NCBI GenBank assembly: GCA_001775835.1
Contig: MEYP01000006.1
Location: 16,486-52,720 of the forward strand
Length of the DNA: 36,235 nt
Origin: Candidatus Azambacteria bacterium RIFCSPHIGHO2_02_FULL_52_12
GTDB lineage: Bacteria > Patescibacteriota > Minisyncoccia > GWC2-36-17 > WO2-46-25
Direction: 5' to 3'
This document shows, one piece after another, positions 1,994-36,235 of this stretch. Positions within the stretch are counted from its first letter, which is position 1. Each line of letters begins with the position of its first letter. A model generated the notes under the pieces. It did not search any database. It was not told the origin of the DNA and saw nothing but the letters and a program-made list of their open reading frames with translations. The translations under genes were made by a program, and so were the position numbers.

Positions 1994-3214
1994 TCAACTT
2001 CCAAACATGGTTTTATTGATATCACCCAAAGCGTCATACAGCACGCCGATGTCTTTTTTGGTGTTATAGATGTAGGGACTGATGCGGCAGGTCGCCGGAA
2101 CGCCGAGGAATTTGTGCAGGGGCATCGCGCAGTGGTTGCCCGCGCGCACGGCGATGTTTTGTTCATCCAGCAGGGAAGCGATATCGTGCGGATGGATGCC
2201 CTTGAGGTTGAACGCGACCGCGCCGCTTCGGCGCTTCATGTCTGTGGGACCGTAGACAGTCACGCCGGGGACCTGCCGCAATTTTTCCAGAGTGTACTGT
2301 GCAAGCTCTTTTTCATGGCGCTCGATGTTTTTCATGCCGATATGTTCCAGATAATCGACCGCCGCGCCCAAAGCGATGGCCGCTTCGATGGCGGGCGTCC
2401 CCGCTTCGAATTTCGCGGGCGCGTCGGCAAAGACGACGTTCGTTTCCGAAACCGAGCGTATCATCTCGCCGCCGCCCAAAAACGGGGGCAGGGAACCAAG
2501 ATATTTGTCTTTCATGTATAAAACGCCGATGCCGGTCGGCGCGAGCATTTTGTGCCCCGAAAACGCGTAAAAGTCGCAGTCCATCGCCGACACGTCCACG
2601 CTCATGTGCGGCACCGCCTGCGCGCCGTCAATCAGCGCGGGAATCCCGCGCGCGTGGAAAAATGAAACCAGGTCGCGCGCGGGGTTCACGGTGCCAAGCA
2701 CGTTGGAAACATGGGTGAACGCCGCCAATTTCACCTTCTTGGTCGCTTTTGCCACCAGATCTTTGGGGTCCAGCGTTCCGTCGCTTGTGATGCGTACAAA
2801 CCGCAGTTTCAGCTTCTTTTCTTTTGCGACCAGATACCACGGCACGATATTGGAGTGGTGCTCCATGACGGTCAGCAGGATTTCATCGCCCGCTTTCAGA
2901 TGGTGACGCGCGAAGCTCTGCGCCACCAGATTGACGGCCTCGGTCGTATTGCGGGTGAAAATGATGTTTCTCGCACCTTGCGCGCCGATGAAGCGGGCAA
3001 TCTTTGCGCGCGCTTCCTCGTAGTGCTTCGTCGCTTGTTCGCTCATTTCATAAATGCCCCGGTGGATGTTCGCGTTGGTGTTTTCATAATGCTTCACCAG
3101 CGCGTCTATCACCGCCTGCGGCTTTTGCGTCGTTGCGGCGCTGTCCAAATACACCAATTTAGGATTGGCTTTGAAAATAGGGAAGTCTTTTTTAATGGTG
3201 TTTTTGTTTATCAT
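1994..3214 (-). CDS. sufS: Cysteine desulfurase SufS (class V aminotransferase)
   Basis: The 406-aa ORF carries a PLP-lysine context (FSGHKMLAPTGIGVLY), the catalytic Cys loop (RAGNHCAMPL) and HHSNIVPW. Its start overlaps the sufD stop by 4 nt. Confidence 0.93.
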   Translation of the reverse strand: MINKNTIKKDFPIFKANPKLVYLDSAATTQKPQAVIDALVKHYENTNANIHRGIYEMSEQATKHYEEARAKIARFIGAQGARNIIFTRNTTEAVNLVAQSFARHHLKAGDEILLTVMEHHSNIVPWYLVAKEKKLKLRFVRITSDGTLDPKDLVAKATKKVKLAAFTHVSNVLGTVNPARDLVSFFHARGIPALIDGAQAVPHMSVDVSAMDCDFYAFSGHKMLAPTGIGVLYMKDKYLGSLPPFLGGGEMIRSVSETNVVFADAPAKFEAGTPAIEAAIALGAAVDYLEHIGMKNIERHEKELAQYTLEKLRQVPGVTVYGPTDMKRRSGAVAFNLKGIHPHDIASLLDEQNIAVRAGNHCAMPLHKFLGVPATCRISPYIYNTKKDIGVLYDALGDINKTMFGS

Positions 3215-3789
3215 GGCGTCAGAGCGAGAACATTGCTCATATCTTGGAAAAATCCGGCGACGCAGATTTTTTTCGCTTCTTTTTCGGAAAGCCCGCGCGA
3301 CCGCAGGTAAAACAGGTCCTTTGCGCTGACGCGCCCGATGCTCGAGCCGTGGCTTGCCTTCACTTCGTTTTGCAGTATCTCCAGGTCGGGCTTGATGAAC
3401 GCGCGCGCTTGTTCCGAAAGCAAGAGCGCTTTGGCGCCCAGTTTGGCATCGGCGTATTTCGCGCTTTTTTCGATGCGCACCGTGCCGTGAAACGTTACGC
3501 GCGACGAGTCTGCGAGCGCCCCTTTGAAATTCACGTTTGACGCCGTCCCTTCTGCTTTATGGACGATATCAAGCGCGATGTCCGTTTGCATGTCGCCCGA
3601 ACCTTTATATGCCCATAGTATTTCAACGGAGCTTTTTTTGCCCGCGAGCGTGACGGAAAGATGCATCTTTCTGGGCGCGTGCTTCTCAAAAAGAAAAACA
3701 AGGCGCCGCGCTTCGTTCGCTTTCGCAAGGACGATGGCATGCTCGAACGTTTCCGGCAGGGTATTTGAATGAATGGTAATATCTTGCAT
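3211..3789 (-). CDS. sufD: Short SufD-like Fe-S assembly protein (C-terminal half only)
   Basis: The 192-aa ORF matches the SufB/SufD C-terminal region (FHGTVRIEKSAKYADAKLGAKALLLSEQA...EILQNEVKASHGSSIGRVSAKDLFYLRSRGLSEKEAKK). Confidence 0.8.
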   Translation of the reverse strand: MQDITIHSNTLPETFEHAIVLAKANEARRLVFLFEKHAPRKMHLSVTLAGKKSSVEILWAYKGSGDMQTDIALDIVHKAEGTASNVNFKGALADSSRVTFHGTVRIEKSAKYADAKLGAKALLLSEQARAFIKPDLEILQNEVKASHGSSIGRVSAKDLFYLRSRGLSEKEAKKICVAGFFQDMSNVLALTP

Positions 3790-3810
3790 GTTAAAGTAGA
3801 GTTGGATTTT

Positions 3811-3845
3811 TTCTATTTTCTATTTTCTAAATTCTAGCTTCTATG
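3811..3845 (-). repeat. Heptad array (TAGAAnn) x5 in the sufB-sufD spacer
   Basis: The plus strand reads ttctatt ttctatt ttctaaa ttctagc ttctatg. On the mRNA strand this follows the sufB stop directly: TAG-CATAGAA GCTAGAA TTTAGAA AATAGAA AATAGAA. Confidence 0.9.
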
Positions 3846-5243
3846 CTAACCGATCGCGTTCTCCATTTCCATTTCAATGAGACGGTTGAGCTCAAGAGCG
3901 TAGTCGGCGGGGAGTATTTTTGCCAGCGGCTCGAAAAAACCGGCAACGACTAAGGATGCCGCTTCCGTTTCGGAAAACCCGCGCGACTTAAGATAAAAAA
4001 GCTCCTTCTCGCTGATGCGGGACACCGTGGCTTCATGTTCAATCCTGGTATCCTGTTCTTCTATCTTCATGGTCGGATACGTGTCCGAGCGTGACTGCTT
4101 GTCCAGTATGAGGGCGTCGCACCGCACTTTTATCTTGGCGTTTTTCGCGCCTTTCACGACTTGCGCGAGCCCGCGATACGCGGTGCGCCCGCCGCCAAAC
4201 GCGACGGATTTTGAGACGATGTTGGAAGAAGTGTCGGATGCCATATGCACCACTTTCGCGCCCGCGTCCTGGCACTGCCCCTTGCCCGCCAGCGCCACGG
4301 ACAAGATATCCGCCCGCGCGCCCCGTCCGACCAAAAACACCGAAGGGTATTTCATGGTGATCTTCGAGCCCAGGTTGCCGTCTATCCATTCTACAAGCGC
4401 GTTTTCTTCCGCCCGCGCCCGCTTGGTCACCAGATTGTACACGTTGGCAGACCAGTTCTGGATGGTCGTGTAGCGCACCCGGGAGCCCTTCTTTGCGATT
4501 ATCTCCACCACGGCGGCGTGGAGCGCATCGGTGGTGTACACGGGCGCGGTGCACCCTTCAATGTAGTGCACATCGCTGCCCTCGTCGGCGATGATGAGCG
4601 TGCGCTCGAACTGCCCGATATTCTTGGTGTTGATGCGGAAATACGCCTGCAGGGGCATCGCGACCTTCACCCCCTTGGGCACGTAGATGAAACTGCCGCC
4701 CGACCAGCACGCGGAGTTGAGCGCCGCGAATTTGTTGTCGCCGATGGGCACCACCGTCCCGAAGTATTGCCGGAACAGGTCGGGATATTTCTTGAGGGCG
4801 GTGCCCGTGTCGGTGAAGATGATGCCCTGCTTCTCGAGATTTTTCTGGATGTTGTGGTATACCGTTTCGGAGTCGTATTGCGCGCCCACGCCCGCGAAGA
4901 ATTTCCGTTCGGCTTCGGGCACGCCCAGCTTGTCGAATGTTTTTTTGATGTCTTTGGGCACATCCTTCCATTCCCGGGTTTGCGCCCCTTCAGGCTTCGC
5001 GTAGTAGATGATGTTTCCAAAATCGATGGCGGACAGGTCGGGGCCCCACGCGGGCATTTTTTTTGCGTTGAATATCTCAAACGCGCGCACGCGGAAGTCG
5101 CGCATCCACTGCGGGTCGTTCTTCTCCGCCGAAATGCGCTCGACGATCTCGCGGGAAAGTCCGCGTTCGGTCTGATATGCGGGCTTCACGTCGCTGTGAA
5201 ATCCGTATTGGTATTTCGTGCTGGAGGTTGTATTACTGGGCAT
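3846..5243 (-). CDS. sufB: Fe-S cluster assembly protein SufB
   Basis: The 465-aa ORF is SufB-like along its whole length (YGFHSDVKP..., FIYVPKGVKV, ...HEATVSRISEKELFYLKSRGFSETEA). Confidence 0.95.
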   Translation of the reverse strand: MPSNTTSSTKYQYGFHSDVKPAYQTERGLSREIVERISAEKNDPQWMRDFRVRAFEIFNAKKMPAWGPDLSAIDFGNIIYYAKPEGAQTREWKDVPKDIKKTFDKLGVPEAERKFFAGVGAQYDSETVYHNIQKNLEKQGIIFTDTGTALKKYPDLFRQYFGTVVPIGDNKFAALNSACWSGGSFIYVPKGVKVAMPLQAYFRINTKNIGQFERTLIIADEGSDVHYIEGCTAPVYTTDALHAAVVEIIAKKGSRVRYTTIQNWSANVYNLVTKRARAEENALVEWIDGNLGSKITMKYPSVFLVGRGARADILSVALAGKGQCQDAGAKVVHMASDTSSNIVSKSVAFGGGRTAYRGLAQVVKGAKNAKIKVRCDALILDKQSRSDTYPTMKIEEQDTRIEHEATVSRISEKELFYLKSRGFSETEAASLVVAGFFEPLAKILPADYALELNRLIEMEMENAIG

Positions 5244-6568: not shown

Positions 6569-8704
6569 TCACTTAACCTTCAATTTCGGCTCGATGCGCT
6601 TGAGCAGGACGGCGTTGGCGGCAACGATGATGGAGGAGGCCGACATCAGGAGCGCGGAGATTTCCGGGCGCAAAGACCAGCCCAGGGACGGATAAAAAAC
6701 TCCGGCGGCGACGGGAATCGCGAGAATGTTGTAAATGGCGGCCCAGAACAGGTTTTGTTTCATGGTGCGCACGGTTGCTTTGGAAAGCGTGATGGCGGCA
6801 AGCACGTCCGCCGGGTCGGATCTCATCAGCACGATATTCGCGGTTTCGATGGCAACGTCGGTGCCCGCGCCGATGGCGATGCCGATATCGGCCTCTGCGA
6901 GGGCGGGCGCGTCGTTGATGCCGTCGCCCACCATCGCGACGAATTTCCCTTCTTCCTGCAGTTTTTTCACGTACGACGCTTTATCCTGGGGGAGCACTTG
7001 CGCGAACACGCGCGTGATGCCGAGCTCGCGGGCGACCGCTTGCGCGATTTTCGGGTGGTCGCCGGTGATCATGGCGACTTCAAGTCCCAGCGCACGCATG
7101 CCCGCAACGGCTTTTTTCGCCGTCGGTTTTATCGCGTCCGCGATGCCGACGACCCCGGCGGCTTTTCCGTCGACGGCCAGCAGGGCAACAGTGTTTCCTT
7201 CATCAAGCAGGCGCTCCATGTCCTGCGCGAGGGGGGTCATGTCGATAGCATTGTCGCGCATCAGGCGTTCCGTTCCGACGAGCACGAGTCTTTTTTCCAC
7301 CATACCGCGCATGCCATGGCCTCCCAGCGCTTCGAATTTTTCGACGTCGTTGCTCGGCATGATGTTTTTTTGTCTGGCGGCGGCGAGCAGTGCAAGCGCG
7401 ATCGGGTGGTTCGATTTTGCTTCAAGCGACGCCTCCAGGCGCACCACTTCTTCCTCGGTATAGGGAGCAAGCGCGATGATTCGCGTGATAACCGGCTTTC
7501 CCTGGGTGAGCGTACCGGTTTTATCAAGGACTACGGCATTGATTTTTGACGTGTTTTCAAGCGTGGCGGCGTCTTTGATGAGGATGTTGTATTTCGCGCC
7601 GATGCCGGTGCCCACCGCGACGGCGGTCGGCGTCGCAAGCCCTAGCGCATCGGGACAGGCGATGACGACGGCCGAAATGGCGAACGTCAGCGCGGCAAGG
7701 AGCGTGGAACCGCCGATGACGTACCACCCTAAAAACGTCGCGATGCCCGACCCCAGCGCCAGCACCACCAGCCACGCGGCGGCGCTGTCTGCGATACGCT
7801 GGCCGGGCGCTTTAGAGTTTTGCGCGGTTTGGACCAGCTTCGCTATCTGCGCGAGCACGGTATCACTGCCGATCTTGGTCGCCTGAAATACCAGCGCTCC
7901 GGACGTGTTGAGCGAGCCGCCAATCACGCTATCACCTATTTTTTTTACGACCGGCATGGATTCTCCCGTCACGAGCGACTCGTCAACGGAACTTTCACCG
8001 GAAACGACAACGCCGTCAACGGGGATTTTATCGCCCGGTTTCAGCACGACCCTGTCGCCCGGCGCGATTTCCGCCGTAAGCACGAGCGTTTCTGTGCCGT
8101 CGCGCAGGACGGTCGCTTTGGGCGGAACCAGATCGAACAACGCATGCAAGGCGTCGAACGTTCCTCTGCGCGATTTCATTTCCATCCAGTGGCCGAACAA
8201 TACGAACGCGACCAGCATCGCGGCGGCTTCAAAAAACGTTTCTTCTCGCGTAAAAACAGTGAGAAGGACGCTTGCGATGTACGCGGTCAAAACGCCGGTC
8301 GCGATGAGCACGGACATGTTGAGTTTGCGCGCTTTAAGGGAGTAGTACGTTCCGGTGATGAAGATCGAACCAGCCCAGAACACTACAGGCGTCGTCAGAA
8401 GCAGCATCATCCAATTTGCCGGCAGGAAAGCGGGAAGCGTCGGGCCCAAAAAAGCCGTTCCCAGCGATGAGTACAAGACCGTGGGAATGGAAAGCGCCAA
8501 CGAGACAAAGAAACGCCGCCGCATGTCCGCTTCCATCTCTTTCGCCATTCGCGGGTCGGTCATCGCCATTTCGTGGTCCCTGTGGCTCGCCTTCCGGATA
8601 GCGTGTCCCGTATGCGTATGATTTTGCGCTTTCAAGGAGAAAGAGAAAGATTTACGGCTGGCGATGCGTATCGTCTTTTTTATCGCCGGAGCGCGTTTGC
8701 GCAA
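6569..8704 (-). CDS. Heavy-metal translocating P1B-type ATPase (copper-type signatures, CPD variant)
   Basis: The 711-aa ORF has the phosphorylation site DKTGTLT, a hinge GDGINDAPAL, the TM6 motif ACPDALGLATP, and TM7/8 motifs YNILAIP and MSASS. The N-terminus is His-rich (HTHTGH...HRDHEM) with no CxxC HMA domain. The start is uncertain: 8704 overlaps the upstream gene by 53 nt, and 8569 is the alternative. Confidence 0.9.
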   Translation of the reverse strand: MRKRAPAIKKTIRIASRKSFSFSLKAQNHTHTGHAIRKASHRDHEMAMTDPRMAKEMEADMRRRFFVSLALSIPTVLYSSLGTAFLGPTLPAFLPANWMMLLLTTPVVFWAGSIFITGTYYSLKARKLNMSVLIATGVLTAYIASVLLTVFTREETFFEAAAMLVAFVLFGHWMEMKSRRGTFDALHALFDLVPPKATVLRDGTETLVLTAEIAPGDRVVLKPGDKIPVDGVVVSGESSVDESLVTGESMPVVKKIGDSVIGGSLNTSGALVFQATKIGSDTVLAQIAKLVQTAQNSKAPGQRIADSAAAWLVVLALGSGIATFLGWYVIGGSTLLAALTFAISAVVIACPDALGLATPTAVAVGTGIGAKYNILIKDAATLENTSKINAVVLDKTGTLTQGKPVITRIIALAPYTEEEVVRLEASLEAKSNHPIALALLAAARQKNIMPSNDVEKFEALGGHGMRGMVEKRLVLVGTERLMRDNAIDMTPLAQDMERLLDEGNTVALLAVDGKAAGVVGIADAIKPTAKKAVAGMRALGLEVAMITGDHPKIAQAVARELGITRVFAQVLPQDKASYVKKLQEEGKFVAMVGDGINDAPALAEADIGIAIGAGTDVAIETANIVLMRSDPADVLAAITLSKATVRTMKQNLFWAAIYNILAIPVAAGVFYPSLGWSLRPEISALLMSASSIIVAANAVLLKRIEPKLKVK

Positions 8705-9260
8705 GAAGCCATTTTACCGAAGCGACAAAGCCGACGATAAGCAGAACCCACACGACGAGCATGAGAAGCCCGCCGAACCATCCGGCGTGGCCGAAGCTGT
8801 ATGAAGGGCCATAGCCCATCATGCCCCACCCCCCGAAATGTCCGAATCCTCCGAACGAACCGCTGTGCATCATGGACATGAAATCACCGCTTCCCGCAGG
8901 ATATGCCGCGGTCATATCGCATCCGCTCATTTGTTTTCCCATCGCGGCATGCATCTCTTCTTCACCCTCTTTTCCCAGTCTTCGTTCTATCATTTCATTC
9001 ATGGCTTCGTGCGAGGAGCCCATCATCCGGCCCATGTAGTATTCTCCCAATGCCTCAAAATCTCCCTCGGACAGTTGAGCGCAGGTGATCTGCTTCGCCT
9101 GCAATTTTTCCCAGATTTCCTTGCCCTCCGCTTCTTCTTTTGCGGTATGGCCGTCCGTTTTTTCGCCATAGCCCATCATACCCATTTGCGCCGAACTTGG
9201 CGCGGCCGATACCGCGAAAACCCCCGCCAACAGCATTCCTAGAACGATGAAATATCTCAT
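8652..9260 (-). CDS. Met/His/Gly-rich exported, C-terminally anchored protein (putative metal-binding partner of the ATPase)
   Basis: The 202-aa ORF has a signal peptide (MRYFIVLGMLLAGVFAVSAAPSSA), M/H-rich stretches (QMGMMGYG, MMGSSHEAMNEM, FMSMMHSGSFGGFGHFGGWGMMGYG) and a C-terminal TM helix (LLMLVVWVLLIVGFV). The function is inferred. Confidence 0.6.
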   Translation of the reverse strand: MRYFIVLGMLLAGVFAVSAAPSSAQMGMMGYGEKTDGHTAKEEAEGKEIWEKLQAKQITCAQLSEGDFEALGEYYMGRMMGSSHEAMNEMIERRLGKEGEEEMHAAMGKQMSGCDMTAAYPAGSGDFMSMMHSGSFGGFGHFGGWGMMGYGPSYSFGHAGWFGGLLMLVVWVLLIVGFVASVKWLLAQTRSGDKKDDTHRQP

Positions 9261-9800: not shown

Positions 9801-10955
9801 ATGGAAGCGGCCGCAAAGAAAATTTTTGTAGCTATGTCGGGAGGCGTGGATAGCTCTGTTACTGCCGCTCTGCTTAAAGAGCAGGGGCGCGACGTAACAG
9901 GCATATTCATGAAGAACTGGTCTGACAGTGCGTTTTTGAAAGACACGACTATGTGCCCGTGGGTGGCGGACCAGGAAGATGCGCGCAAGGCGGCCGCGGT
10001 CATCGGCATTCCTTTGTATACGTTCGATTTTGAAAAAGAATATCGGGAAAAAGTCGTCGCGTATATGATAGCGGGATACAAGGCGGGGATTACGCCCAAC
10101 CCGGACGTGATGTGCAACAAGGAGATAAAGTTTGGACTGTTCTTACAAAAAGCGCTCGAGCTTGGCGCCGATTTTGTGGCGACCGGCCATTACGTCCGCC
10201 TTCGGCGGAATGACGAATTTCGAATTTCGAATTTCGAAATTGATTCAAAACTTAAAATTCAAAATTCAAAATTAGGTTGCCAGTTGTTACAAGCAAAAGA
10301 TCGAAATAAAGACCAATCTTATTTTTTGTGGACTCTTACGCAAGAACAGTTGAAATATTGCGTTTTTCCCATTGGAGAATATACCAAGCCGGAGGTGCGC
10401 GAGATGGCGCGGAAATACGGTTTGCATAACGCCCAGAAGAAAGACAGCCAGGGAGTGTGCTTCGTGGGCGACTTGGATGTGTTTGAATTTTTAAAGAGTC
10501 AAATCCCGACGCACAAGGGAAAGATCATGACCGCAAGCGGCAGGGAGGTCGGCGAGCACGAGGGTGTGGAATTTTACACTATCGGCCAGCGCCATGGCAT
10601 CGGTTCGCCTGGTGGCGGAACGGCGTATTATGTGGTTGGCAAGGATGCAAAGAAGAATATCTTGTATGTCGGCGAGGGCGCGGATGACAAAGAGCTCTAC
10701 GGCATGGCGCTTGAAGCCAGGGCAGCGCATTGGATTTCCGGCAACGAGCCAGAGTTGCCGTTACGCTGTGAAGCCAGAATACGGTATAGACAATCATTAC
10801 AGAAGTGTATTGTGAATTCTCTGTTTCATGTTTCACGTTTCATGTTTCACGTTGAGTTCGACGAGCCCCAGCGCGCTATCACGCCTGGCCAGTCTGTTGT
10901 TTTTTATGACGGGGATACGGTCCTTGGCGGTGCCGTAATCGTGCAAAAAGTTTGA
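9801..10955 (+). CDS. mnmA: tRNA 2-thiouridine(34) synthase MnmA
   Basis: The 384-aa ORF has the PP-loop (VAMSGGVDSSV), NPDVMCN, ATGHY, KDQSYFLW, DSQGVCF and the C-terminal AITPGQSVVFYDG. It contains two heptad-repeat tracts, listed separately. Confidence 0.93.
   Translation: MEAAAKKIFVAMSGGVDSSVTAALLKEQGRDVTGIFMKNWSDSAFLKDTTMCPWVADQEDARKAAAVIGIPLYTFDFEKEYREKVVAYMIAGYKAGITPNPDVMCNKEIKFGLFLQKALELGADFVATGHYVRLRRNDEFRISNFEIDSKLKIQNSKLGCQLLQAKDRNKDQSYFLWTLTQEQLKYCVFPIGEYTKPEVREMARKYGLHNAQKKDSQGVCFVGDLDVFEFLKSQIPTHKGKIMTASGREVGEHEGVEFYTIGQRHGIGSPGGGTAYYVVGKDAKKNILYVGEGADDKELYGMALEARAAHWISGNEPELPLRCEARIRYRQSLQKCIVNSLFHVSRFMFHVEFDEPQRAITPGQSVVFYDGDTVLGGAVIVQKV
10214..10276 (+). repeat. Nine 7-bp repeat units (63 bp, 21 codons) inside mnmA
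   Basis: The units read cgaattt x3, cgaaatt, gattcaa, aacttaa, aattcaa x2, aattagg. The tract is AT-rich compared with its flanks and encodes DEFRISNFEIDSKLKIQNSKL. Confidence 0.9.
10823..10853 (+). repeat. GTTTCAY heptad x4 inside mnmA
   Basis: The sequence gtttcat gtttcac gtttcat gtttcac gtt encodes FHVSRFMFHV. Confidence 0.9.
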
Positions 10956-11457: not shown

Positions 11458-13404
11458 ATGACGACTAATGAAGTACGGCAGAAATTCCTTGAATTCTTCC
11501 GAGAAAAAGGGCATGCCGTCATTCCCTCGGCTCCGCTCGTGCCCGACGACAAAACGGTGCTGTTCGTGACGGCCGGCATGCAACCGCTGGTGCCGTATTT
11601 GATGGGGGAGAGAAAGCACCCGCAGGGCGCGCGGCTTGCCAACTCGCAGAAATGCCTTCGCACGGATGATATTTTAGAAGTGGGGGACAATCGCCACCTC
11701 ACATTCTTTGAAATGCTCGGCAACTGGTCGCTGGGGGACCCGTCCGAACCGGACGCCAGCCCGACAGGGTCATCCGCCCGGCCAGGCCATTCGGACGGGT
11801 TCCGGCGGGGTATCGGCCGGGCGGGCTATTTCAAAAAAGAGTCCATTGCGTGGAGTTTTGAGCTTTTGACGTCAAAAAAATGGTTCGGCATCGATCCCGA
11901 AAAACTGTATGTCACCGTGTTTGAAGGAGATGCGACAATGGGTATCGCGCGCGACGACGAATCTATCGGTTACTGGAAAGAAGCATTCAAAACCGCGGGC
12001 ATAGATGCGAGTTTGGAAAACGGGCGCATTTCCGCCTATCCCAAAAAGAAAAATTGGTGGGAACTTGCCGGGTCGGGACCATGCGGGCCGGATACGGAGA
12101 TTTTCTACGATATGGGAAAAGAACATGACCCGGTATTTGGCGAACAATGCCATGCGAACTGCGACTGCGGGCGGTTTGTGGAAATCTGGAACAATGTGTT
12201 CATGGAATACGAAAAAAAGGCGGACGGTCCGCCGGTTGGCGGAGGTGGATATTCGTATGTACCGCTCGCGCAGAAAAACGTGGATACCGGCATGGGTCTT
12301 GAGCGCATCACGATGGTTTTACAAGGCGTTGAAACGGTATTTGAGATAGATGTTTTTAAAAAAATCATCGGGAGCATAGAGACAAAAAAAGTCCCCTACG
12401 AGAAAGAAGCGCGAAGATATCGCATCATTGCTGATCATCTGCGCGCGGCGGTGTTTCTGATCTCTGACGGCGTTGCACCTTCGAATGTGGAGCGAGGATA
12501 TATTCTGCGCAGTCTTTTGCGGCGTGCAATAGCGCAGGCGAGGATTTTGAATTTGCCGTTGCGTGATTTTCCAGTGAAACCGATTGAAAGAACACGCGAG
12601 TACTATAAAGAAAATTACCGACTTTCCGCGCTGCCGGCGATTATTGATATTGTAAAAAAAGAATTTGACGCGTTTCTGACGGCATTTGAGAAAGGGAGAA
12701 AAGAGGTTTTACGCATTGTCGGGAAAATACCCGAGGGCGGCGTGATACCCGCCAGAGACGCGTTCAATCTTCATCAGACATACGGTTTTCGGATTGAGTT
12801 GATGATTGATCTGGCAAAAGATTCCGGGCATACCGTGGATGAAAAAGGGTTCTGGGAAGAATACAAAAAGCACCAGGAGATTTCCCGCGCGGGATCAGAG
12901 AAAAAATTCGGCGGGCATGGTTTAATGCTGCAGACCGGTGAGCTGAAAGCGGCTGATGAAGAAGAGTTGAAAAAAGTGACGCGCCTGCACACGGCGACGC
13001 ATCTTTTGCAGGCGGCTTTGCGCAGGGTTTTGGGCGACCACGTGCACCAGATGGGTTCGGACATCACGGCAGAACGCCTGCGGTTCGACTTTTCGCACCC
13101 GCAAAAAATGACGGATGAGGAAAAAAAGAAGGTGGAAGAGGTGGTGAATAAGGAAATCCAAAAAGGACACGCGATGACCCATAAGGAAATGCCGATTGAC
13201 GAAGCGGAAAAAACCGGCGCATTGATGTTTCAAAAGGAAAAATACGGGAAAACGGTGAAAGTATATTCGGCCGGAGATTTCTCCAAAGAGCTCTGCGGAG
13301 GACCGCATGTGGCGAACACGAAAGAAGTGGGAACATTCAAAATCCTCAAAGAAGAGGCATCTTCCGCCGGCGTTCGTCGCATCCGCGCAACAGTTGTTGA
13401 TTGA
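11458..13404 (+). CDS. alaS: Alanine--tRNA ligase, short form lacking the C-terminal C-Ala/DHHA1 region
   Basis: The start is moved to MTTNEVRQKFLEFFREKGH because track start 11392 lies inside the terminator stem. The ORF has FEMLGNWSLGD...YFKKE, the editing-domain motifs HTATHLLQAAL and CGGPHV, and ends at ...RRIRATVVD. It is 648 aa. Confidence 0.9.
   Translation: MTTNEVRQKFLEFFREKGHAVIPSAPLVPDDKTVLFVTAGMQPLVPYLMGERKHPQGARLANSQKCLRTDDILEVGDNRHLTFFEMLGNWSLGDPSEPDASPTGSSARPGHSDGFRRGIGRAGYFKKESIAWSFELLTSKKWFGIDPEKLYVTVFEGDATMGIARDDESIGYWKEAFKTAGIDASLENGRISAYPKKKNWWELAGSGPCGPDTEIFYDMGKEHDPVFGEQCHANCDCGRFVEIWNNVFMEYEKKADGPPVGGGGYSYVPLAQKNVDTGMGLERITMVLQGVETVFEIDVFKKIIGSIETKKVPYEKEARRYRIIADHLRAAVFLISDGVAPSNVERGYILRSLLRRAIAQARILNLPLRDFPVKPIERTREYYKENYRLSALPAIIDIVKKEFDAFLTAFEKGRKEVLRIVGKIPEGGVIPARDAFNLHQTYGFRIELMIDLAKDSGHTVDEKGFWEEYKKHQEISRAGSEKKFGGHGLMLQTGELKAADEEELKKVTRLHTATHLLQAALRRVLGDHVHQMGSDITAERLRFDFSHPQKMTDEEKKKVEEVVNKEIQKGHAMTHKEMPIDEAEKTGALMFQKEKYGKTVKVYSAGDFSKELCGGPHVANTKEVGTFKILKEEASSAGVRRIRATVVD
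11740..11826 (+). repeat. 87-bp GC-rich palindromic element translated in-frame within alaS
   Basis: It encodes PSEPDASPTGSSARPGHSDGFRRGIGRAG between the GD and YFK residues. It has interleaved perfect 10-bp inverted repeats at 11739-48 / 11790-99 and 11774-83 / 11815-24. Its core resembles the reverse complement of the 61-bp element at 14011 and 14728. Confidence 0.85.
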
Positions 13405-17279: not shown

Positions 17280-17393
17280 ATGAAAATCAGAGCATCCGTA
17301 AAAAAAATATGCGCGAAGTGCAAATCTGTGCGAAGGTTCGGAAGGATCTATGTGCTCTGCGCGAATCCAAAACATAAACAAAGACAGAAATAG
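17280..17393 (+). CDS. rpmJ: 50S ribosomal protein L36
   Basis: This ORF is too short for the ORF track. Hand translation gives [37 protein letters not shown] (37 aa). The stop TAG is the first unit of the heptad array. Confidence 0.9.
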
Positions 17394-17473
17394 AAACTAG
17401 AAATTAGAAAGTAGAATCTAGAACTAAGGAGTCCAAACTTCTATTTTCTAGATTCTAGCTTCTAGATTCCACA
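17391..17473 (+). repeat. Heptad palindrome: (TAGAAnn)x5, a spacer containing AAGGAG, then (TTCTAnn)x4-5
   Basis: The sequence is tagaaac tagaaat tagaaag tagaatc tagaact | aaggagtccaaac | ttctatt ttctaga ttctagc ttctaga ttccaca. For example, tagaatctagaa pairs perfectly with ttctagattcta. Confidence 0.9.
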
Positions 17474-17476
17474 ACT

Positions 17477-17863
17477 ATGCCCAGAATCGCCGGTATAAAC
17501 ATACCCGATAACAAACGAATAGAAATAGCGCTTGCCTATATTTACGGCATCGGCCCGACATTGGGGACGCACATCGTCACCCAGGTTGGCGTCGACCCGA
17601 ACAAGCGGGCCAACAAGCTGACCGCCGAAGAGCTCAACCGCATCAAAGAGTACATCGAAAAGCATTACAAGATAGAAGGGGATCTGAAGCGCGAGATTAT
17701 GCTGAACGTCAAACGGCTGAAAGACATCAAGGCGTATCGTGGCGTTCGGCACATGCGCGGGCTTCCCGTGCGGGGCCAGCGGACCAAAACCAATTCACGA
17801 ACGCGCCGTGGCAACACGAGAAAGACGGCGGGATCGGGAAGGAGATCGGTTGATAAGAAATAA
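17477..17863 (+). CDS. rpsM: 30S ribosomal protein S13
   Basis: The 128-aa ORF begins MPRIAGINIPDNKRIEIALAYIYGIGP and contains YRGVRHMRGLPVRGQRTKTN. Confidence 0.95.
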   Translation: MPRIAGINIPDNKRIEIALAYIYGIGPTLGTHIVTQVGVDPNKRANKLTAEELNRIKEYIEKHYKIEGDLKREIMLNVKRLKDIKAYRGVRHMRGLPVRGQRTKTNSRTRRGNTRKTAGSGRRSVDKK

Positions 17864-18473: not shown

Positions 18474-18514
18474 CAGAAATAGAAACTAGAATTTAGAAAA
18501 TAGAAACTAGAATA
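18473..18514 (+). repeat. Heptad array (TAGAAnn)x5-6 filling the rpsK-rpsD spacer
   Basis: The sequence is acagaaa tagaaac tagaatt tagaaaa tagaaac tagaatATG. The last unit overlaps the rpsD start, and there is no SD. Confidence 0.9.
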
Positions 18515-34335: not shown

Positions 34336-36235
34336 ATGTATATCAAGTCGATTTCGCTCAGCAATTTCAAAAAATTCGACAAGCTCTCAGTGGCCTTTCC
34401 TTCGGATATCACCGTGGTGAAGGGCCCCAACGAACAGGGCAAATCAAGCCTGCTCGCGGCGCTTTTGGCGGGTCTTTTTTACGATCCGAAAAAAAGCAAC
34501 CAGCAGATCTCCTCGCTCAAATCGTGGCAGTCGGACAAGCTGTATGAGCTGGTCACCGGCATCGAACACAACGGCGAGGATATCGTGCTTTCGAAGAATT
34601 TCGAGACCAAGGAACTACTGTTGGAGAATAAGACGACGGGGAAAAAGCTCAATACGTTCGCCGCAATCGGCGATGAACTGTACACGATCGGCGCCCTGCG
34701 GTCGCTTGCTCTTTTTGAGAATACGGCGTGCGTGCGGCATGACGCGCTGGCACAGATGACTGAAGGCAAGAAAGAGATTTCACAGGCGTTGCAGGCGCTC
34801 ATGACTGCGTCGGGGGAAAACGTCAGCTCCGAGAAAATACTGAAAAAACTCGGCGACGGCATCGCGTCGCTTCAGCGCGGCACGAAACAGCAGGCGAAAA
34901 CGCCGGGCCTGTTGAAGCAGCTTGATGCCGACCTTGCTGTACTTGCGGGGAAAAAGACGGCCATAGCATCCGCGCTTGCGGACTTGGCGGCAAAAAGCGC
35001 CCATGCGGGAGAGCTTGCCGCGCTCGAACGCATCAGCAAACGCGAGTACGACGCGAAAGAGAGCCAATACCAGAAGAATATCGCGTATTTCAAGACGATG
35101 CAGGAGCTTGAGAAACTGCACGCGCAGGCGGACAAGGCGAACGCGGATTACAACGCGCTCATGGACATCGAGAACAAAAAAGGATATTTGAGCGTCCAAC
35201 AGGAAAAAATGAAAACGCTCAAAGCGATCGACTGGGAAAAGCTCTACGCGCAACGGGAGGCGTTGAGCGTCAAGAAAGAAAAGCAGAAAAATATTCTCGA
35301 GGAGGCGGAGCGCCTTGCCAAAGAAAAGAAGAAAACGAAAATACACGTGAAAATATCGCATGTTGCCGTGTCTGCTCTACTCGCCGCGCTCGGGTTTCTG
35401 GGGTTTGTGCGCGTTGAGCTGTTCGCGGCGTGGGTTTTGTCTGCCGTTGCGTTCGCGTACAGTTTCGTGTTTCGGCGCGGCATCGTCGTGCATACGGGCG
35501 TCCAGCTTGGCGCCGAGTCGGAAAGTCTGGCGCATGAGATCGCGGTGCTTGAAAAACAGCACACCAGCATCATGGATGAGAACGGCGTTTCCAGCATCGA
35601 AGAGCTGGTCCAGAAAGTGAAACGATACAACGAATTCGGGGTTGAACGGGAAAAATTGGAAAGCAAAGAAGAAGGGATATTGCGCGGCGGACGCCGAGAC
35701 AATTTCAAAAAAGAGCGCACCGAACTGCTCAAACGCATCGCCATCGAAGAAGCGAAGATCTCCGATGAAGAAAAAGCATCGCCGCCGTCTCCGTCGGCGC
35801 AGCGGCTCTTGGAAGTAGACCGGGAAAGGCACAAGCAGGAACTGGATAAGCTGGATAAGGAAATAGCGCACGTGAACGCTATCTTGCATTCGCAGTACAG
35901 CAGGGAGGATCTGGCGAAGACGGAGGAAGAGATGGAATACAAGCAAGCGCAGAAAGTGAACGCGGAGCGCAAGCTTGAAACGCTCCAGGTGCTTGCGGAC
36001 GCGCTCGCGGAAGCCCAGATAAGAACGATCGCGCAGTCGCGCTCCGTCATCGAACAATACATGCGGCGCTATCTGCCGGCCATCACCGACGGACGGTATA
36101 CGAACGTGAAGATCAAAGACGACCTGTCGTTCGAGGTGTGGTCCGACGAGAAGAAAGGGATGATCGTGCCGGAAGAAAATCTCTCCAAAGGGACGATCGA
36201 CCAGTTTTATCTCGTCGCGCGCTTTGCCGTGCTCG
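34336..36235 (+). CDS. sbcC: SbcC/Rad50-like SMC-type ATPase (3' end outside window), with a hydrophobic hairpin in the coiled coil
   Basis: This ORF is absent from the ORF track because it is open-ended. Hand translation from the ATG at 34336 gives MYIKSISLSNFKKFDKLSVAFPSDITVVKGPNEQGKSSLL (Walker A), long K/E/A-rich coiled coils and a signature-like LSKGTIDQFYLVARFAVL at the window end. The stretches I translated from 34336 to about 35520 contain no in-frame stop, and the window end reads in the same frame. The segment between them I inferred to be open only because the track lists no complete ORF in that frame. Confidence 0.8.
   Translation, partial: MYIKSISLSNFKKFDKLSVAFPSDITVVKGPNEQGKSSLLAALLAGLFYDPKKSNQQISSLKSWQSDKLYELVTGIEHNGEDIVLSKNFETKELLLENKTTGKKLNTFAAIGDELYTIGALRSLALFENTACVRHDALAQMTEGKKEISQALQALMTASGENVSSEKILKKLGDGIASLQRGTKQQAKTPGLLKQLDADLAVLAGKKTAIASALADLAAKSAHAGELAALERISKREYDAKESQYQKNIAYFKTMQELEKLHAQADKANADYNALMDIENKKGYLSVQQEKMKTLKAIDWEKLYAQREALSVKKEKQKNILEEAERLAKEKKKTKIHVKISHVAVSALLAALGFLGFVRVELFAAWVLSAVAFAYSFVFRRGIVVHTGVQLGAESESLAHEIAVLEKQHTSIMDENGVSSIEELVQKVKRYNEFGVEREKLESKEEGILRGGRRDNFKKERTELLKRIAIEEAKISDEEKASPPSPSAQRLLEVDRERHKQELDKLDKEIAHVNAILHSQYSREDLAKTEEEMEYKQAQKVNAERKLETLQVLADALAEAQIRTIAQSRSVIEQYMRRYLPAITDGRYTNVKIKDDLSFEVWSDEKKGMIVPEENLSKGTIDQFYLVARFAVL

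What the first reader, a model, noticed from the sequence alone, without database searches (positions are those of the whole stretch)
10214..10276. Nine heptad units (63 bp = 21 codons) inserted in-frame in mnmA between the ATGHY and KDQSYF motifs
The tract reads CGAATTT x3, CGAAATT, GATTCAA, AACTTAA, AATTCAA x2, AATTAGG. It is markedly AT-rich inside a GC-richer gene. It encodes DEFRISNFEIDSKLKIQNSKL.

The spacing between ATGHY and KDQSYF here is 38 residues. I recall about 19 in E. coli MnmA. The tract therefore looks like a ~21-codon insertion. Seven-nt units preserve the frame only in multiples of three, and there are exactly nine.

This links the intergenic heptad arrays to coding sequence, and implies that heptad-array expansion can invade essential genes.
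Basis: partly seen in the sequence, partly recalled or inferred. Interest (0 to 1): 0.65.

Follow-up and report, generated by a model that had tools for sequence, protein, structure and literature searches.

The report
Seven-base repeats inserted inside mnmA
A run of 7-letter DNA repeats sits in frame inside a tRNA-modifying enzyme gene of a tiny groundwater bacterium and lengthens a surface loop. Relatives gain, lose and rewrite such repeats at the same two loops, so a repeat type known mostly from non-coding DNA is also reshaping conserved proteins.

Summary
The tract is real. Window 10208-10273 is an AT-rich (24% GC against 51% for the rest of the gene) period-7 array. It lies in frame in mnmA between ATGHY and KDQSYF. 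That spacer is 38 aa here, 19 in E. coli MnmA and 20 in S. pneumoniae MnmA.

It is not nine equal units. It is two imperfectly complementary arms, about four GAATTTC units and about four AAATTCA units, around a 5-nt loop. The net insertion is 18-20 codons.

It belongs to a class of 7-bp arrays that is lineage-wide in Patescibacteria: 40 arrays in 432 kb, against 4 in 920 kb of Bacillota loci. Other periods are rare. In the window these arrays also fill four intercistronic spacers and a second site in mnmA (10820-10854).

Across 118 orthologues the same two beta-hairpin tips carry heptad arrays with different units and lengths. Four close relatives show all four presence/absence combinations. 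One array differs by exactly three units (ATGTTTC x1 against x4, 21 nt).

The insert is predicted to be disordered (pLDDT below 50) on an otherwise intact MnmA fold. It is monomorphic in the contigs held.

Best reading: arrays gain and lose units in situ and survive only at permissive loops. It is probably near-neutral and is not a phase switch. This is a new variant of a known kind, of moderate interest.

The parts
9801..10955 (+). mnmA (tRNA 2-thiouridine(34) synthase), 384 aa. This is the host gene of both in-frame arrays.
   Evidence: ORF. PDB sequence matches to MnmA, E 1e-105. AF2 model has mean pLDDT 91.5 and TM 0.88/0.93 to 2deu_A.
10208..10273 (+). Site-1 heptad tract, the finding itself. 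It is about 9.4 period-7 units at 24% GC and encodes NDEFRISNFEIDSKLKIQNSKL. It sits at the tip of the beta-hairpin between ATGHY and KDQSYF.
   Evidence: Insert residues 139-156 have pLDDT below 50 and lie between strands 132-135 and 161-164.
10215..10238 (+). Left arm, (GAATTTC)3 followed by GAA.
   Evidence: Inverted-repeat pair I1, 24 nt, 79% complementary, 5 nt between the arms.
10244..10267 (+). Right arm, TTCAAAACTTAAAATTCAAAATTC, of the (AAATTCA) type.
   Evidence: A perfect partner unit, TGAATTT, in the left arm would place TGA in one of the three frames (read directly from the sequence).
10820..10854 (+). Site-2 in-frame heptad array, (GTTTCAY)4, encoding SLFHVSRFMFHV. It sits at a beta-hairpin of the C-terminal domain and is 4 aa longer than in S. 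pneumoniae MnmA.
   Evidence: Orthologues P0002 and P0004 have one unit and P0005 has four. Flanking strands are 334-340 and 348-358.
3802..3843 (-). Intercistronic heptad array, TAGAANN x5 on the minus strand, between sufB (3849-5243) and the downstream SufBD-core gene (3214-3789).
17387..17473 (+). Intercistronic heptad hairpin: an (AGAAANT)5 arm, a loop containing AAGGAG, then a (TTCTAGN)5 arm. It lies between the rpmJ stop codon and the rpsM ATG at 17477.
   Evidence: RNA fold z = -4.5 on the plus strand and -4.3 on the minus strand. rpsM identified.
18477..18512 (+). Intercistronic heptad array, AGAAANT x5, that abuts the rpsD ATG at 18514. It lies downstream of rpsK.
34260..34335 (+). 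Intercistronic hairpin with heptad-type arms (AGCTTTN and CTNAAAG). It lies between an SbcD-like phosphoesterase gene and an SbcC-like ATPase gene whose ATG is at 34336.
   Evidence: RNA fold z = -4.2 and -5.0. Pfam assignments.

Best explanation
The tract is an in-frame heptanucleotide simple-sequence array with two imperfectly complementary arms. It has lengthened the tip of a surface beta-hairpin in the N-terminal PP-loop domain of MnmA by about 19 residues.

It is one product of a lineage-wide process in Patescibacteria that makes and remodels 7-bp tandem arrays everywhere in the genome. These arrays are often built on both sides of a short palindrome.

Arrays change in situ by gain and loss of whole units. 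Inside genes, only net changes divisible by 3 nt survive, typically three units (21 nt, 7 aa). Stop-free units are also required, and the site must tolerate an insertion. In MnmA the tolerated sites are two beta-hairpin tips.

Because 7 is not a multiple of 3, each array is read in all three frames in turn. This gives 7-residue-periodic, low-complexity peptides such as EFRISNF and SKFKIQN.

The insert is translated into a flexible loop. It is probably neutral or nearly so for catalysis, and it is not acting as a phase-variation switch in this population.

What is shown:
- the array and its periodicity;
- that it is an insertion;
- recurrence at the same sites in orthologues;
- a three-unit difference between close relatives;
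- a predicted disordered insert on an intact fold;
- no sequence variation in the contigs held.

What is inferred:
- slippage as the mechanism;
- translation of the insert;
- near-neutrality.
For: Periodicity and enrichment:
- Period 7 is the only enriched short period in the window.
- Loci labelled as candidate phyla radiation (CPR) hold 40 period-7 arrays in 432 kb, against 0-8 for each of periods 4-11. Bacillota loci hold 4 in 920 kb, all from one genome.

It is an insertion: 38 aa here, 19 in E. coli and 20 in S. pneumoniae.

Same sites, different arrays:
- Among 118 orthologues the site-1 spacer ranges from 18 to 62 aa. Site 2 also varies, and both carry peptides of the heptad type.
- DNA of relatives shows units GAATCAT, GAATTAC, AAATCAA, GCAAAGT, CCCCAAA, AAGTTCA and others at the same place.

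In-situ unit change:
- At site 2, P0004 and P0002 read CAGAAAC-ATGTTTC, which contains the palindrome GAAAC-AT-GTTTC.
- P0005 is 91% identical to P0004 overall and reads (CAGAAAC)2-TATAAATA-(ATGTTTC)4.
- The four close relatives show all four combinations of sites 1 and 2.

Length classes: site-1 lengths cluster at 19, 25, 31-34, 36-39, 44-46 and 50-51 aa.

Tolerance: AF2 gives pLDDT below 50 for residues 139-156, between strands 132-135 and 161-164. The rest of the model averages above 90 and superposes on MnmA crystal structures at 2.1-2.4 A.

Generality: in-frame arrays occur in nine other housekeeping protein families and in LeuRS, and one lies at the extreme N-terminus of an Adk ORF.

Not a switch: the gene is identical, 0 differences in 1155 nt, in 9 contigs from different samples and assemblers. 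The 90% identity protein cluster holds a single sequence.

No mRNA hairpin: the sense-strand fold has z = 0.0.
Against: - Slippage itself was not observed, and no reads were available.
- The direction of change (expansion or contraction) at site 2 cannot be fixed. The window, which is the outgroup to P0002/4/5, also carries four units there.
- Length quantisation is imperfect. The best period is about 6.5 aa rather than 7, and the sequences are phylogenetically non-independent.
- Pure local slippage does not predict several observations:
  - units are more alike within a genome than between genomes (mean distance 2.2 against 2.66; 0 of 5000 permutations reach this);
  - the same unit sits at both MnmA sites in P0008;
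  - the same two-arm array type occurs in a LeuRS of another organism;
  - the array is 85-92% identical between the window and P0002, while the genes are about 70% identical.
- Some array types persist within clades. That could mean the loop has acquired a function.
Confidence: 0.6

Rival explanations
1. The tract is a copy of a small mobile or copy-pasted palindromic element, comparable to Rickettsia palindromic elements or REP/MITE elements. It would have inserted in frame or been imported by recombination, rather than growing in place.
For: - It has a two-arm palindromic layout.
- The same two-arm type, (GAATTTC)n...(AAATTCA)n, lies in frame in a LeuRS of another organism (L186).
- (GAATTTC)3 occurs in at least 120 metagenome contigs with GC from 30 to 70%.
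- The array segment is 85-92% identical between the window and P0002, while the genes are about 70% identical. P0002 against P0004 is a mosaic of 100% blocks and 60-80% patches, so recombination does move segments.
- Units are more alike within genomes than between them.
- A Y1_Tnp gene lies next to mnmA in L214 and L215.
Against: - There is no conserved non-repeat core.
- Unit number and unit sequence vary from locus to locus.
- No clean insertion boundaries or target-site duplication appear when filled and empty alleles are aligned.
- There is no second copy of this unit in the 36-kb window.
- Site 2 shows both arms differing by whole units around a resident palindrome.
- Y1_Tnp is absent from the window and shows no general association with arrays. 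Homologues were found in 5 loci out of 2.2 Mb held.
Confidence: 0.2
2. The insert is a selected, lineage-specific extension of the MnmA beta-hairpin with a protein-level role, such as contact with tRNA or with a sulfur-donor partner.
For: - Particular insert types are shared within clades of orthologues whose identity to the window protein is only 55-60%. An example is EFRISNFE..SKFKIQNSK.
- Flanking residues co-vary with insert presence: LLQAKD with the insert, LLAGxD without it.
- Both sites are surface hairpins of an RNA-binding enzyme.
Against: - Sequence and length are hypervariable, and the insert is present or absent among relatives that are 86-91% identical in DNA.
- The same peptides occur in unrelated enzymes and at both MnmA sites.
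- Insert residues 139-156 have pLDDT below 50.
- The peptide composition is what the DNA repeat dictates.
Confidence: 0.12
3. The tract is a contingency locus. Slippage by one or two units would switch mnmA off and on, giving phase variation of tRNA thiolation.
For: The unit length is not a multiple of three, so +/-1 or +/-2 units would shift the frame (read directly from the sequence). Heptanucleotide repeats are used for phase variation in some pathogens (PMC2651432; PMC8262952).
Against: - Only 3.6 perfect units are present, and the rest is interrupted.
- There are 0 differences in 9 contigs from several samples, and the 90% identity cluster holds a single sequence.
- The look-up is by exact protein sequence, so frameshifted alleles would not be retrieved by it. 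This evidence is therefore weaker than it looks.
Confidence: 0.04
4. The tract is kept because it forms a nucleic-acid structure with a regulatory role inside the ORF. This could be an mRNA pause hairpin, an antisense RNA element or a DNA cruciform.
For: The antisense strand folds into a 23-bp hairpin at -21.3 kcal/mol, z = -3.7. Intergenic relatives of the tract are strong hairpins, z -4.2 to -5.0.
Against: - The sense mRNA fold is no better than shuffled sequence (z = 0.0).
- Many orthologous arrays are single-armed, for example P0006-P0008, L013 and L017.
- No minus-strand gene lies next to the tract that could use it. The nearest listed minus-strand ORF that is not embedded in a plus-strand gene is 8652-9260.
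Confidence: 0.04

Closest known systems
Heptanucleotide long simple-sequence repeats of prokaryotes (Mrazek, Guo & Shah 2007, as summarised in PMC4679880 and PMC4692102). This includes cyanobacterial STRR repeats, Xanthomonas GGGAATC and Beggiatoaceae TAACTGA arrays.
   Same: - Tandem 7-nt units, a few to a few dozen copies, strongly over-represented relative to other unit lengths.
- Often located between genes and just upstream of start codons.
- Sometimes arranged as inverted pairs (Xanthomonas, PMC4692102).
- Length and sequence differ between close relatives.
- The window's four intercistronic arrays fit this description directly.
   Different: - The described families are intergenic and have one dominant unit per genome.
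- The same literature holds that units whose length is a multiple of three are the ones expected in coding regions (PMC4679880).
- Here a 7-nt array is in frame inside a conserved enzyme, recurs at the same two structural sites across a whole radiation, and uses many different units.
- I found no description of heptad arrays in Patescibacteria in the searchable library.
Rickettsia palindromic elements (RPEs): palindromic elements inserted in frame in metabolic genes (reviewed in PMC10969869).
   Same: A palindromic DNA segment sits in frame in unrelated housekeeping genes. It adds a peptide at positions compatible with the protein fold.
   Different: - RPEs are about 150 bp and fall into families with conserved sequence and a conserved peptide. 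They are regarded as mobile.
- This tract is about 60 bp, is built from 7-nt units, has no conserved core and has no recognisable termini.
- At least at site 2 it changes by whole units in place.
Borg amino-acid tandem repeats (PMC9879509).
   Same: Rapidly evolving tandem DNA repeats inside ORFs create new, low-complexity or disordered protein segments. They arise independently at many loci.
   Different: - Borg in-ORF repeats translate as repeats of whole amino-acid units (aaTR units of 4-17 aa, PMC9879509).
- Here the unit is 7 nt, so the peptide period (7 aa) comes from reading three units in three frames.
- Only steps of three units are viable.
- The hosts here are core bacterial enzymes rather than proteins of an extrachromosomal element.
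Phase-variable SSR contingency loci (for example Haemophilus; PMC2651432, PMC8262952).
   Same: A repeat whose unit is not a multiple of three lies inside a coding sequence.
   Different: No polymorphism was seen, the tract is interrupted, and the host is a housekeeping gene rather than a surface or restriction gene.

Membership tests
MnmA (tRNA 2-thiouridine(34) synthase), the host gene | PP-loop SGGVDS, the two catalytic Cys motifs (PDVMCNK and SQGxCF), and the three-domain MnmA fold. | tested here: met
   The motifs are invariant in the 94-sequence alignment: S13-S18, C105 and C220. PDB matches at E 1e-105. TM 0.88/0.93 to 2deu_A.
Heptanucleotide simple-sequence repeat (long SSR / STRR-type) | Head-to-tail copies of a 7-nt unit, three or more. 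| tested here: met
   TRF finds CGAATTT x3.6 at 100% and ATTCAAA x4.4 at 83%.
Heptanucleotide simple-sequence repeat (long SSR / STRR-type) | Over-representation relative to chance and to other unit lengths. | tested here: met
   No matches expected in shuffles. There are 5 period-7 regions against 0 at periods 4-6, 8, 10 and 11. CPR loci hold 40 period-7 arrays against 0-8 at each of periods 4-11.
Heptanucleotide simple-sequence repeat (long SSR / STRR-type) | Unit number differs between related genomes. | tested here: met
   ATGTTTC x1 against x4 at site 2. Site 1 is 18 aa against 25 aa against 36-38 aa among orthologues.
Heptanucleotide simple-sequence repeat (long SSR / STRR-type) | Intergenic location, as in the described families. 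| tested here: not met
   This tract and the one at 10820-10854 lie inside the mnmA ORF. Four other arrays in the window are intercistronic.
Phase-variable contingency locus | Length polymorphism of the tract within a population or among strains. | tested here: not met
   0 differences in 1155 nt across 9 contigs. The 90% identity cluster has one member sequence. Caveat: the contigs were retrieved by exact protein match, and reads were not examined.
Phase-variable contingency locus | A long uninterrupted repeat tract. | tested here: not met
   Only 3.6 perfect units, and the remainder is interrupted.
RPE / MITE-like in-frame palindromic element | Multiple copies per genome sharing a conserved element sequence. 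| tested here: inconclusive
   There is no other copy of the unit in the 36-kb window, and the rest of the 0.94-Mb genome was not available. Units are somewhat more alike within loci than between them.
RPE / MITE-like in-frame palindromic element | Defined termini (terminal inverted repeats) and target-site duplication. | tested here: not met
   Alignment of filled against empty alleles shows no clean boundaries or duplications.
RPE / MITE-like in-frame palindromic element | In-frame insertion at a position compatible with the fold. | tested here: met
   The insert lies between strands 132-135 and 161-164, and the fold is otherwise intact.
REP / RAYT system | A cognate Y1 (RAYT) transposase in the genome and REP hairpins with a conserved recognition sequence. 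| not testable with these tools
   Only 36 kb of the genome is in hand. tblastn with the L214 Y1_Tnp finds nothing in the window.
Borg-type amino-acid tandem repeats | The DNA unit translates directly as a repeated amino-acid unit, which requires a unit length divisible by three. | tested here: not met
   The unit is 7 nt.

The most novel reading that the evidence does not exclude
Patescibacteria, and some other lineages, may possess a sequence-biased process that actively builds heptad arrays and heptad-armed hairpins on short palindromic seeds. The agent could be a property of their replication or repair machinery, or a dedicated factor.

In this reading the intercistronic arrays are functional RNA or DNA elements. 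They would act as three-frame stop cassettes and as start-proximal leaders lacking a Shine-Dalgarno sequence. The same process would act as a standing generator of new surface loops in core enzymes, copying preferred units between loci. The mnmA tract would then be one visible output of a previously undescribed engine of protein-loop innovation, not a passive slippage scar.
Probability: 0.15. Interest if true: 0.8.

Novelty: new variant of a known kind. Interest (0 to 1): 0.55.

Why it matters
Heptanucleotide repeats have been known for decades as the most over-represented long SSR class in bacteria. They have been treated as intergenic curiosities of unknown origin.

This case shows them in frame inside core translation and replication enzymes of the candidate phyla radiation. 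They recur at the same beta-hairpin tips and change in 21-nt quanta. That has three practical consequences:

- It gives a natural system for studying how a non-triplet repeat can create and remodel protein loops.
- It explains part of the puzzling length variation of conserved CPR proteins. MnmA orthologues here range from 347 to 482 aa.
- It warns annotators and phylogeneticists that these segments are DNA-driven, low-complexity insertions and not homologous protein sequence.

It also offers a concrete handle on the open question of why the period is 7.

Tried and rejected
- **Literature.** Searches for heptad repeats in Patescibacteria/CPR found nothing specific. General SSR literature was found.
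- **Idealised peptide search.** A database search with an idealised array peptide returned only short ORFs with no Pfam domain. These are presumably spurious calls over intergenic arrays, and some come from cyanobacteria and Bdellovibrio. It gave no list of invaded protein families and was a poor use of a capped search.
- **mRNA hairpin.** Rejected, because the sense-strand fold has z = 0.0.
- **RAYT/REP lead.** A Y1_Tnp gene sits next to mnmA in L214 and L215. It is absent from the window, and homologues were found in only 5 loci out of 2.2 Mb held.
- **Strict 7-aa length quantisation.** The distribution is multimodal, but the best period is about 6.5 aa and the sequences are not independent. 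I use it only as supporting evidence.
- **Inverted-partner count.** My first count was flawed, because GAATTTC and GAAATTC differ at one base and every array matched itself. The redone count gives 12 of 120 loci.
- **Apparent alaS split in L006.** It is caused by scaffold Ns.
- **Tree building.** One attempt timed out and was redone. The result is a quick neighbour-joining ordering without support values.
- **Assembly artefact.** Rejected, because the DNA is identical in contigs from several samples and assemblers.
Full report
**Observation**

It lies inside ORF 9801..10955 (384 aa). The ORF is MnmA. phmmer gives E 1e-105 to S. pneumoniae MnmA (2hma/9hlv) and 5e-97 to E. coli MnmA (2der). An AlphaFold2 model built on 94 orthologues has mean pLDDT 91.5 and superposes on the E. 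coli MnmA-tRNA cocrystal chains with TM 0.88/0.93 and rmsd 2.1 A.

Tandem Repeats Finder reports two period-7 arrays: 10214-10238 (CGAATTT, 3.6 copies, 100%) and 10243-10273 (ATTCAAA, 4.4 copies, 83%). The tract is 23.8% GC, against 51.1% for the rest of the gene. A 20-mer of the unit with up to 3 mismatches hits only this tract, with none expected in shuffles.

The spacer between ATGHY and KDQSYF is 38 aa here. It is 19 aa in E. coli (2der Y141 to K161) and 20 aa in S. pneumoniae.

**Anatomy**

The 'nine units' are really two arms. Arm 10215-10238 is (GAATTTC)3 plus GAA. Arm 10244-10267 is of the AAATTCA type. They are 79% complementary with 5 nt between them. A degenerate unit, GAATGAC, extends the array to 10208.

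The mismatches are regular. They are C in arm 1 opposite A in arm 2, once per unit. The perfectly pairing unit, TGAATTT, would put TGA into one of the three frames that a heptad array passes through. Stop avoidance therefore explains them.

As a consequence the sense mRNA has no significant hairpin (-12 kcal/mol, z = 0.0). The antisense strand, where the mismatches become G.U pairs, folds at -21.3 kcal/mol (z = -3.7).

The net insertion is 18-20 codons, depending on the comparator. It is not exactly 21.

**Context in the window**

Period 7 is the only enriched short period: 5 regions, against 0 at periods 4, 5, 6, 8, 10 and 11. Besides the finding there are:
- a second in-frame array in mnmA, (GTTTCAY)4 at 10820-10854;
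- four intercistronic arrays, at sufB-[3802-3843]-sufD-like, rpmJ-[17387-17473]-rpsM, rpsK-[18477-18512]-rpsD, and SbcD-like-[34260-34335]-SbcC-like.

Two of the intercistronic arrays are strong hairpins whose arms are heptad arrays (z -4.2 to -5.0 on both strands).

**Lineage**

The genome is a Rifle-aquifer Patescibacteria (CPR) MAG: GCA_001774085.1, also present as a 941-kb scaffold. The closest MnmA orthologues that carry a source name are labelled Azambacteria, Sungbacteria, Parcubacteria or Patescibacteria group.

I fetched 80 MnmA loci from GTDB genomes.
- The 28 CPR-labelled loci (432 kb) hold 40 period-7 arrays, against 0-8 for each of periods 4-11.
- The 46 Bacillota loci (920 kb) hold 4, all in one Anaerobacillus genome.

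In a larger set of 538 kb, made of these CPR-labelled loci, four unlabelled loci and the window itself, 30 of 46 arrays lie inside ORFs of at least 150 aa. Besides MnmA these ORFs include GltX, a ROK kinase, TatD, a class-V aminotransferase, LigA, a GatA-like amidase, a POR/IOR subunit and ThiI. Two further arrays lie at the extreme N-terminal ends of the Adk and ribosomal protein L4 ORFs.

**Orthologue test**

Among 118 orthologues the site-1 spacer ranges from 18 to 62 aa. Both site 1 and site 2 carry highly variable inserts with the 7-residue-periodic signature of translated heptads. Examples are EFRISNF, SKFKIQN, SEIRNPK, ITNYELR, IIHNSKF and LLATRYS.

DNA confirms this:
- P0006 has (GAATCAT)5.
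- P0008 has (GAATTAC)5 at site 1 and the same unit again at site 2.
- P0007 has (AAATCAA/AATTCAA)5.
- All three give 25 aa, which is 18 plus 7.

GTDB loci show further units at the same place: GCAAAGT, CCCCAAA, AATTTAA, AATACAA and AAGTTCA.

The closest relatives, P0002, P0004 and P0005, are 86-91% DNA-identical to each other and about 70% identical to the window gene. Together with the window they show all four combinations of array presence at the two sites.

At site 2, P0004 and P0002 read CAGAAAC-ATGTTTC, which is the palindrome GAAAC-AT-GTTTC. P0005 reads (CAGAAAC)2-TATAAATA-(ATGTTTC)4. The right arm thus differs by exactly three units, or 21 nt. It also shows change of unit number in place, on both sides of a resident palindrome.

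Site-1 lengths are multimodal, at 19, 25, 31-34, 36-39, 44-46 and 50-51. The best-fitting period is about 6.5 aa and the sequences are not independent, so I treat this only as consistent with 21-nt steps.

**Protein consequence**

In the model the insert (residues 139-156) has pLDDT below 50. It sits between strands 132-135 and 161-164, so it is at the tip of a beta-hairpin. Site 2 lies between strands 334-340 and 348-358. The catalytic motifs are intact. I could not measure the distance to tRNA, because no coordinates were available.

**Stability**

The gene is identical in 9 contigs from several samples and assemblers, and the 90% identity protein cluster has one member sequence. Nothing indicates hypervariability or an assembly artefact. 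However, retrieval was by exact protein match, and reads were not examined.

**Mechanism**

The published proposal for the excess of heptanucleotide SSRs in prokaryotes is polymerase slippage favoured by a 7-nt contact length (Mrazek et al. 2007, as cited in PMC4679880 and PMC4692102). My best explanation is:
- arrays gain and lose units in situ;
- selection filters the results for frame (multiples of 3 nt), for the absence of stops, and for structural tolerance;
- the surviving insert is translated into a flexible loop of little functional consequence.

Confidence in this explanation is 0.6.

Four observations are not predicted by purely local slippage.
- Units are more alike within a genome than between genomes (mean distance 2.2 against 2.66; 0 of 5000 permutations reach this).
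- The window's array is 85-92% identical to that of P0002, although the genes are about 70% identical. P0002 against P0004 is a recombination mosaic.
- (GAATTTC)3 occurs in at least 120 metagenome contigs with GC from 30 to 70%. In 12 loci it has a cognate inverted partner, always in the same arm order.
- The same two-arm array lies in frame in a LeuRS (L186).

These keep a copy-paste or mobile reading alive (confidence 0.2). Against it, I saw no conserved core, termini or target duplications. A Y1 transposase gene next to mnmA in two relatives shows no general association with arrays. The remaining rivals are a selected protein-level role (0.12), a phase switch (0.04) and an intragenic structural element (0.04).

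**Comparison with known systems**

- The nearest known kind is the heptanucleotide long SSR. It includes cyanobacterial STRR, Xanthomonas GGGAATC (some as inverted pairs) and Beggiatoaceae TAACTGA arrays upstream of start codons (PMC4692102, PMC4679880). The window's intercistronic arrays fit this kind. The in-frame arrays do not fit the described location.
- Rickettsia palindromic elements share the in-frame palindromic insertion into housekeeping genes. They are about 150-bp conserved mobile families (PMC10969869).
- Borg tandem repeats share the creation of disordered segments, but they translate as repeats of whole amino-acid units (PMC9879509).
- I found no description of heptad arrays in Patescibacteria or of their recurrent in-frame residence in conserved enzymes.

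**Verdict**

This is a new variant of a known kind. The single tract is probably near-neutral. The pattern it reveals is well supported here and appears undescribed: a non-triplet repeat class remodels the same surface hairpins of core enzymes across a bacterial radiation in 21-nt quanta. Interest is 0.55.

Noticed in passing
window 10820-10854: A second in-frame heptad array, (GTTTCAY)4, lies in mnmA at a C-terminal-domain beta-hairpin. Among close relatives it has one unit or four units.
   Followed up: yes
window 3802-3843, 17387-17473, 18477-18512: The intercistronic arrays share the unit family NTAGAAA/TTTCTAN. Every unit carries TAG, so three units place a stop in all three frames. The arrays run from the upstream stop codon almost to the downstream ATG, where no Shine-Dalgarno sequence is visible. 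In the rpmJ-rpsM hairpin, AAGGAG sits in the loop (17427-17432), about 45 nt from the ATG.
   Followed up: partly
L214 2958-3626; L215 1-108: A Y1_Tnp (PF01797; IS200/RAYT-like) gene lies directly upstream of mnmA in the P0008 and P0007 relatives. Weak homologues occur in L146, L044 and L129. None is in the window, and there is no general association with arrays.
   Followed up: partly
L046 8727-8777, 14249-14344, 18209-18242: Anaerobacillus arseniciselenatis is the only Bacillota locus with heptad arrays. It has four arrays of AACTCAA in 21 kb, one of them inside a 413-aa ORF.
   Followed up: no
L189, L200, L178, L111, L172 (metagenome contigs): Some metagenome contigs, several with GC-rich flanks, carry long hairpins made of (GAATTTC)4, an inner segment that is a GC-rich stem in L189, L200 and L178, and (GAAATTC)4. 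The arm order is always GAATTTC first (17 of 17 hits). (GAATTTC)3 occurs in at least 120 contigs with GC from 30 to 70%.
   Followed up: partly
L186 (minus strand), 838-aa ORF: A LeuRS carries in frame EKISNFEFRISKLKNSNIQSKFKIQNSKLESLL. This is the same two-arm array type, (GAATTTC)n...(AAATTCA)n, as the window's mnmA tract.
   Followed up: partly
P0027 and P0029 site 1; P0006 site 2 (L213 10980-11013): The peptide LLATRYSLLA, encoded by (CTACTCG)4 in P0006, appears at site 2 in one orthologue. It also appears at site 1 in others whose loop has the normal length of 19 aa. Heptad arrays can therefore overwrite a loop without lengthening it.
   Followed up: no
(orthologue flanks of site 1): Residues just after the insert co-vary with its presence: LLQAKD, LxVAKD or KIAKD with long inserts, LLAGxD without. 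In P0002 against P0004 the differing patch includes these flanks.
   Followed up: no
L006 (window equivalents 8903-8909 and 12219-12224): The apparent split of alaS in one contig is caused by scaffold gaps (runs of N). It is not a real variant.
   Followed up: yes
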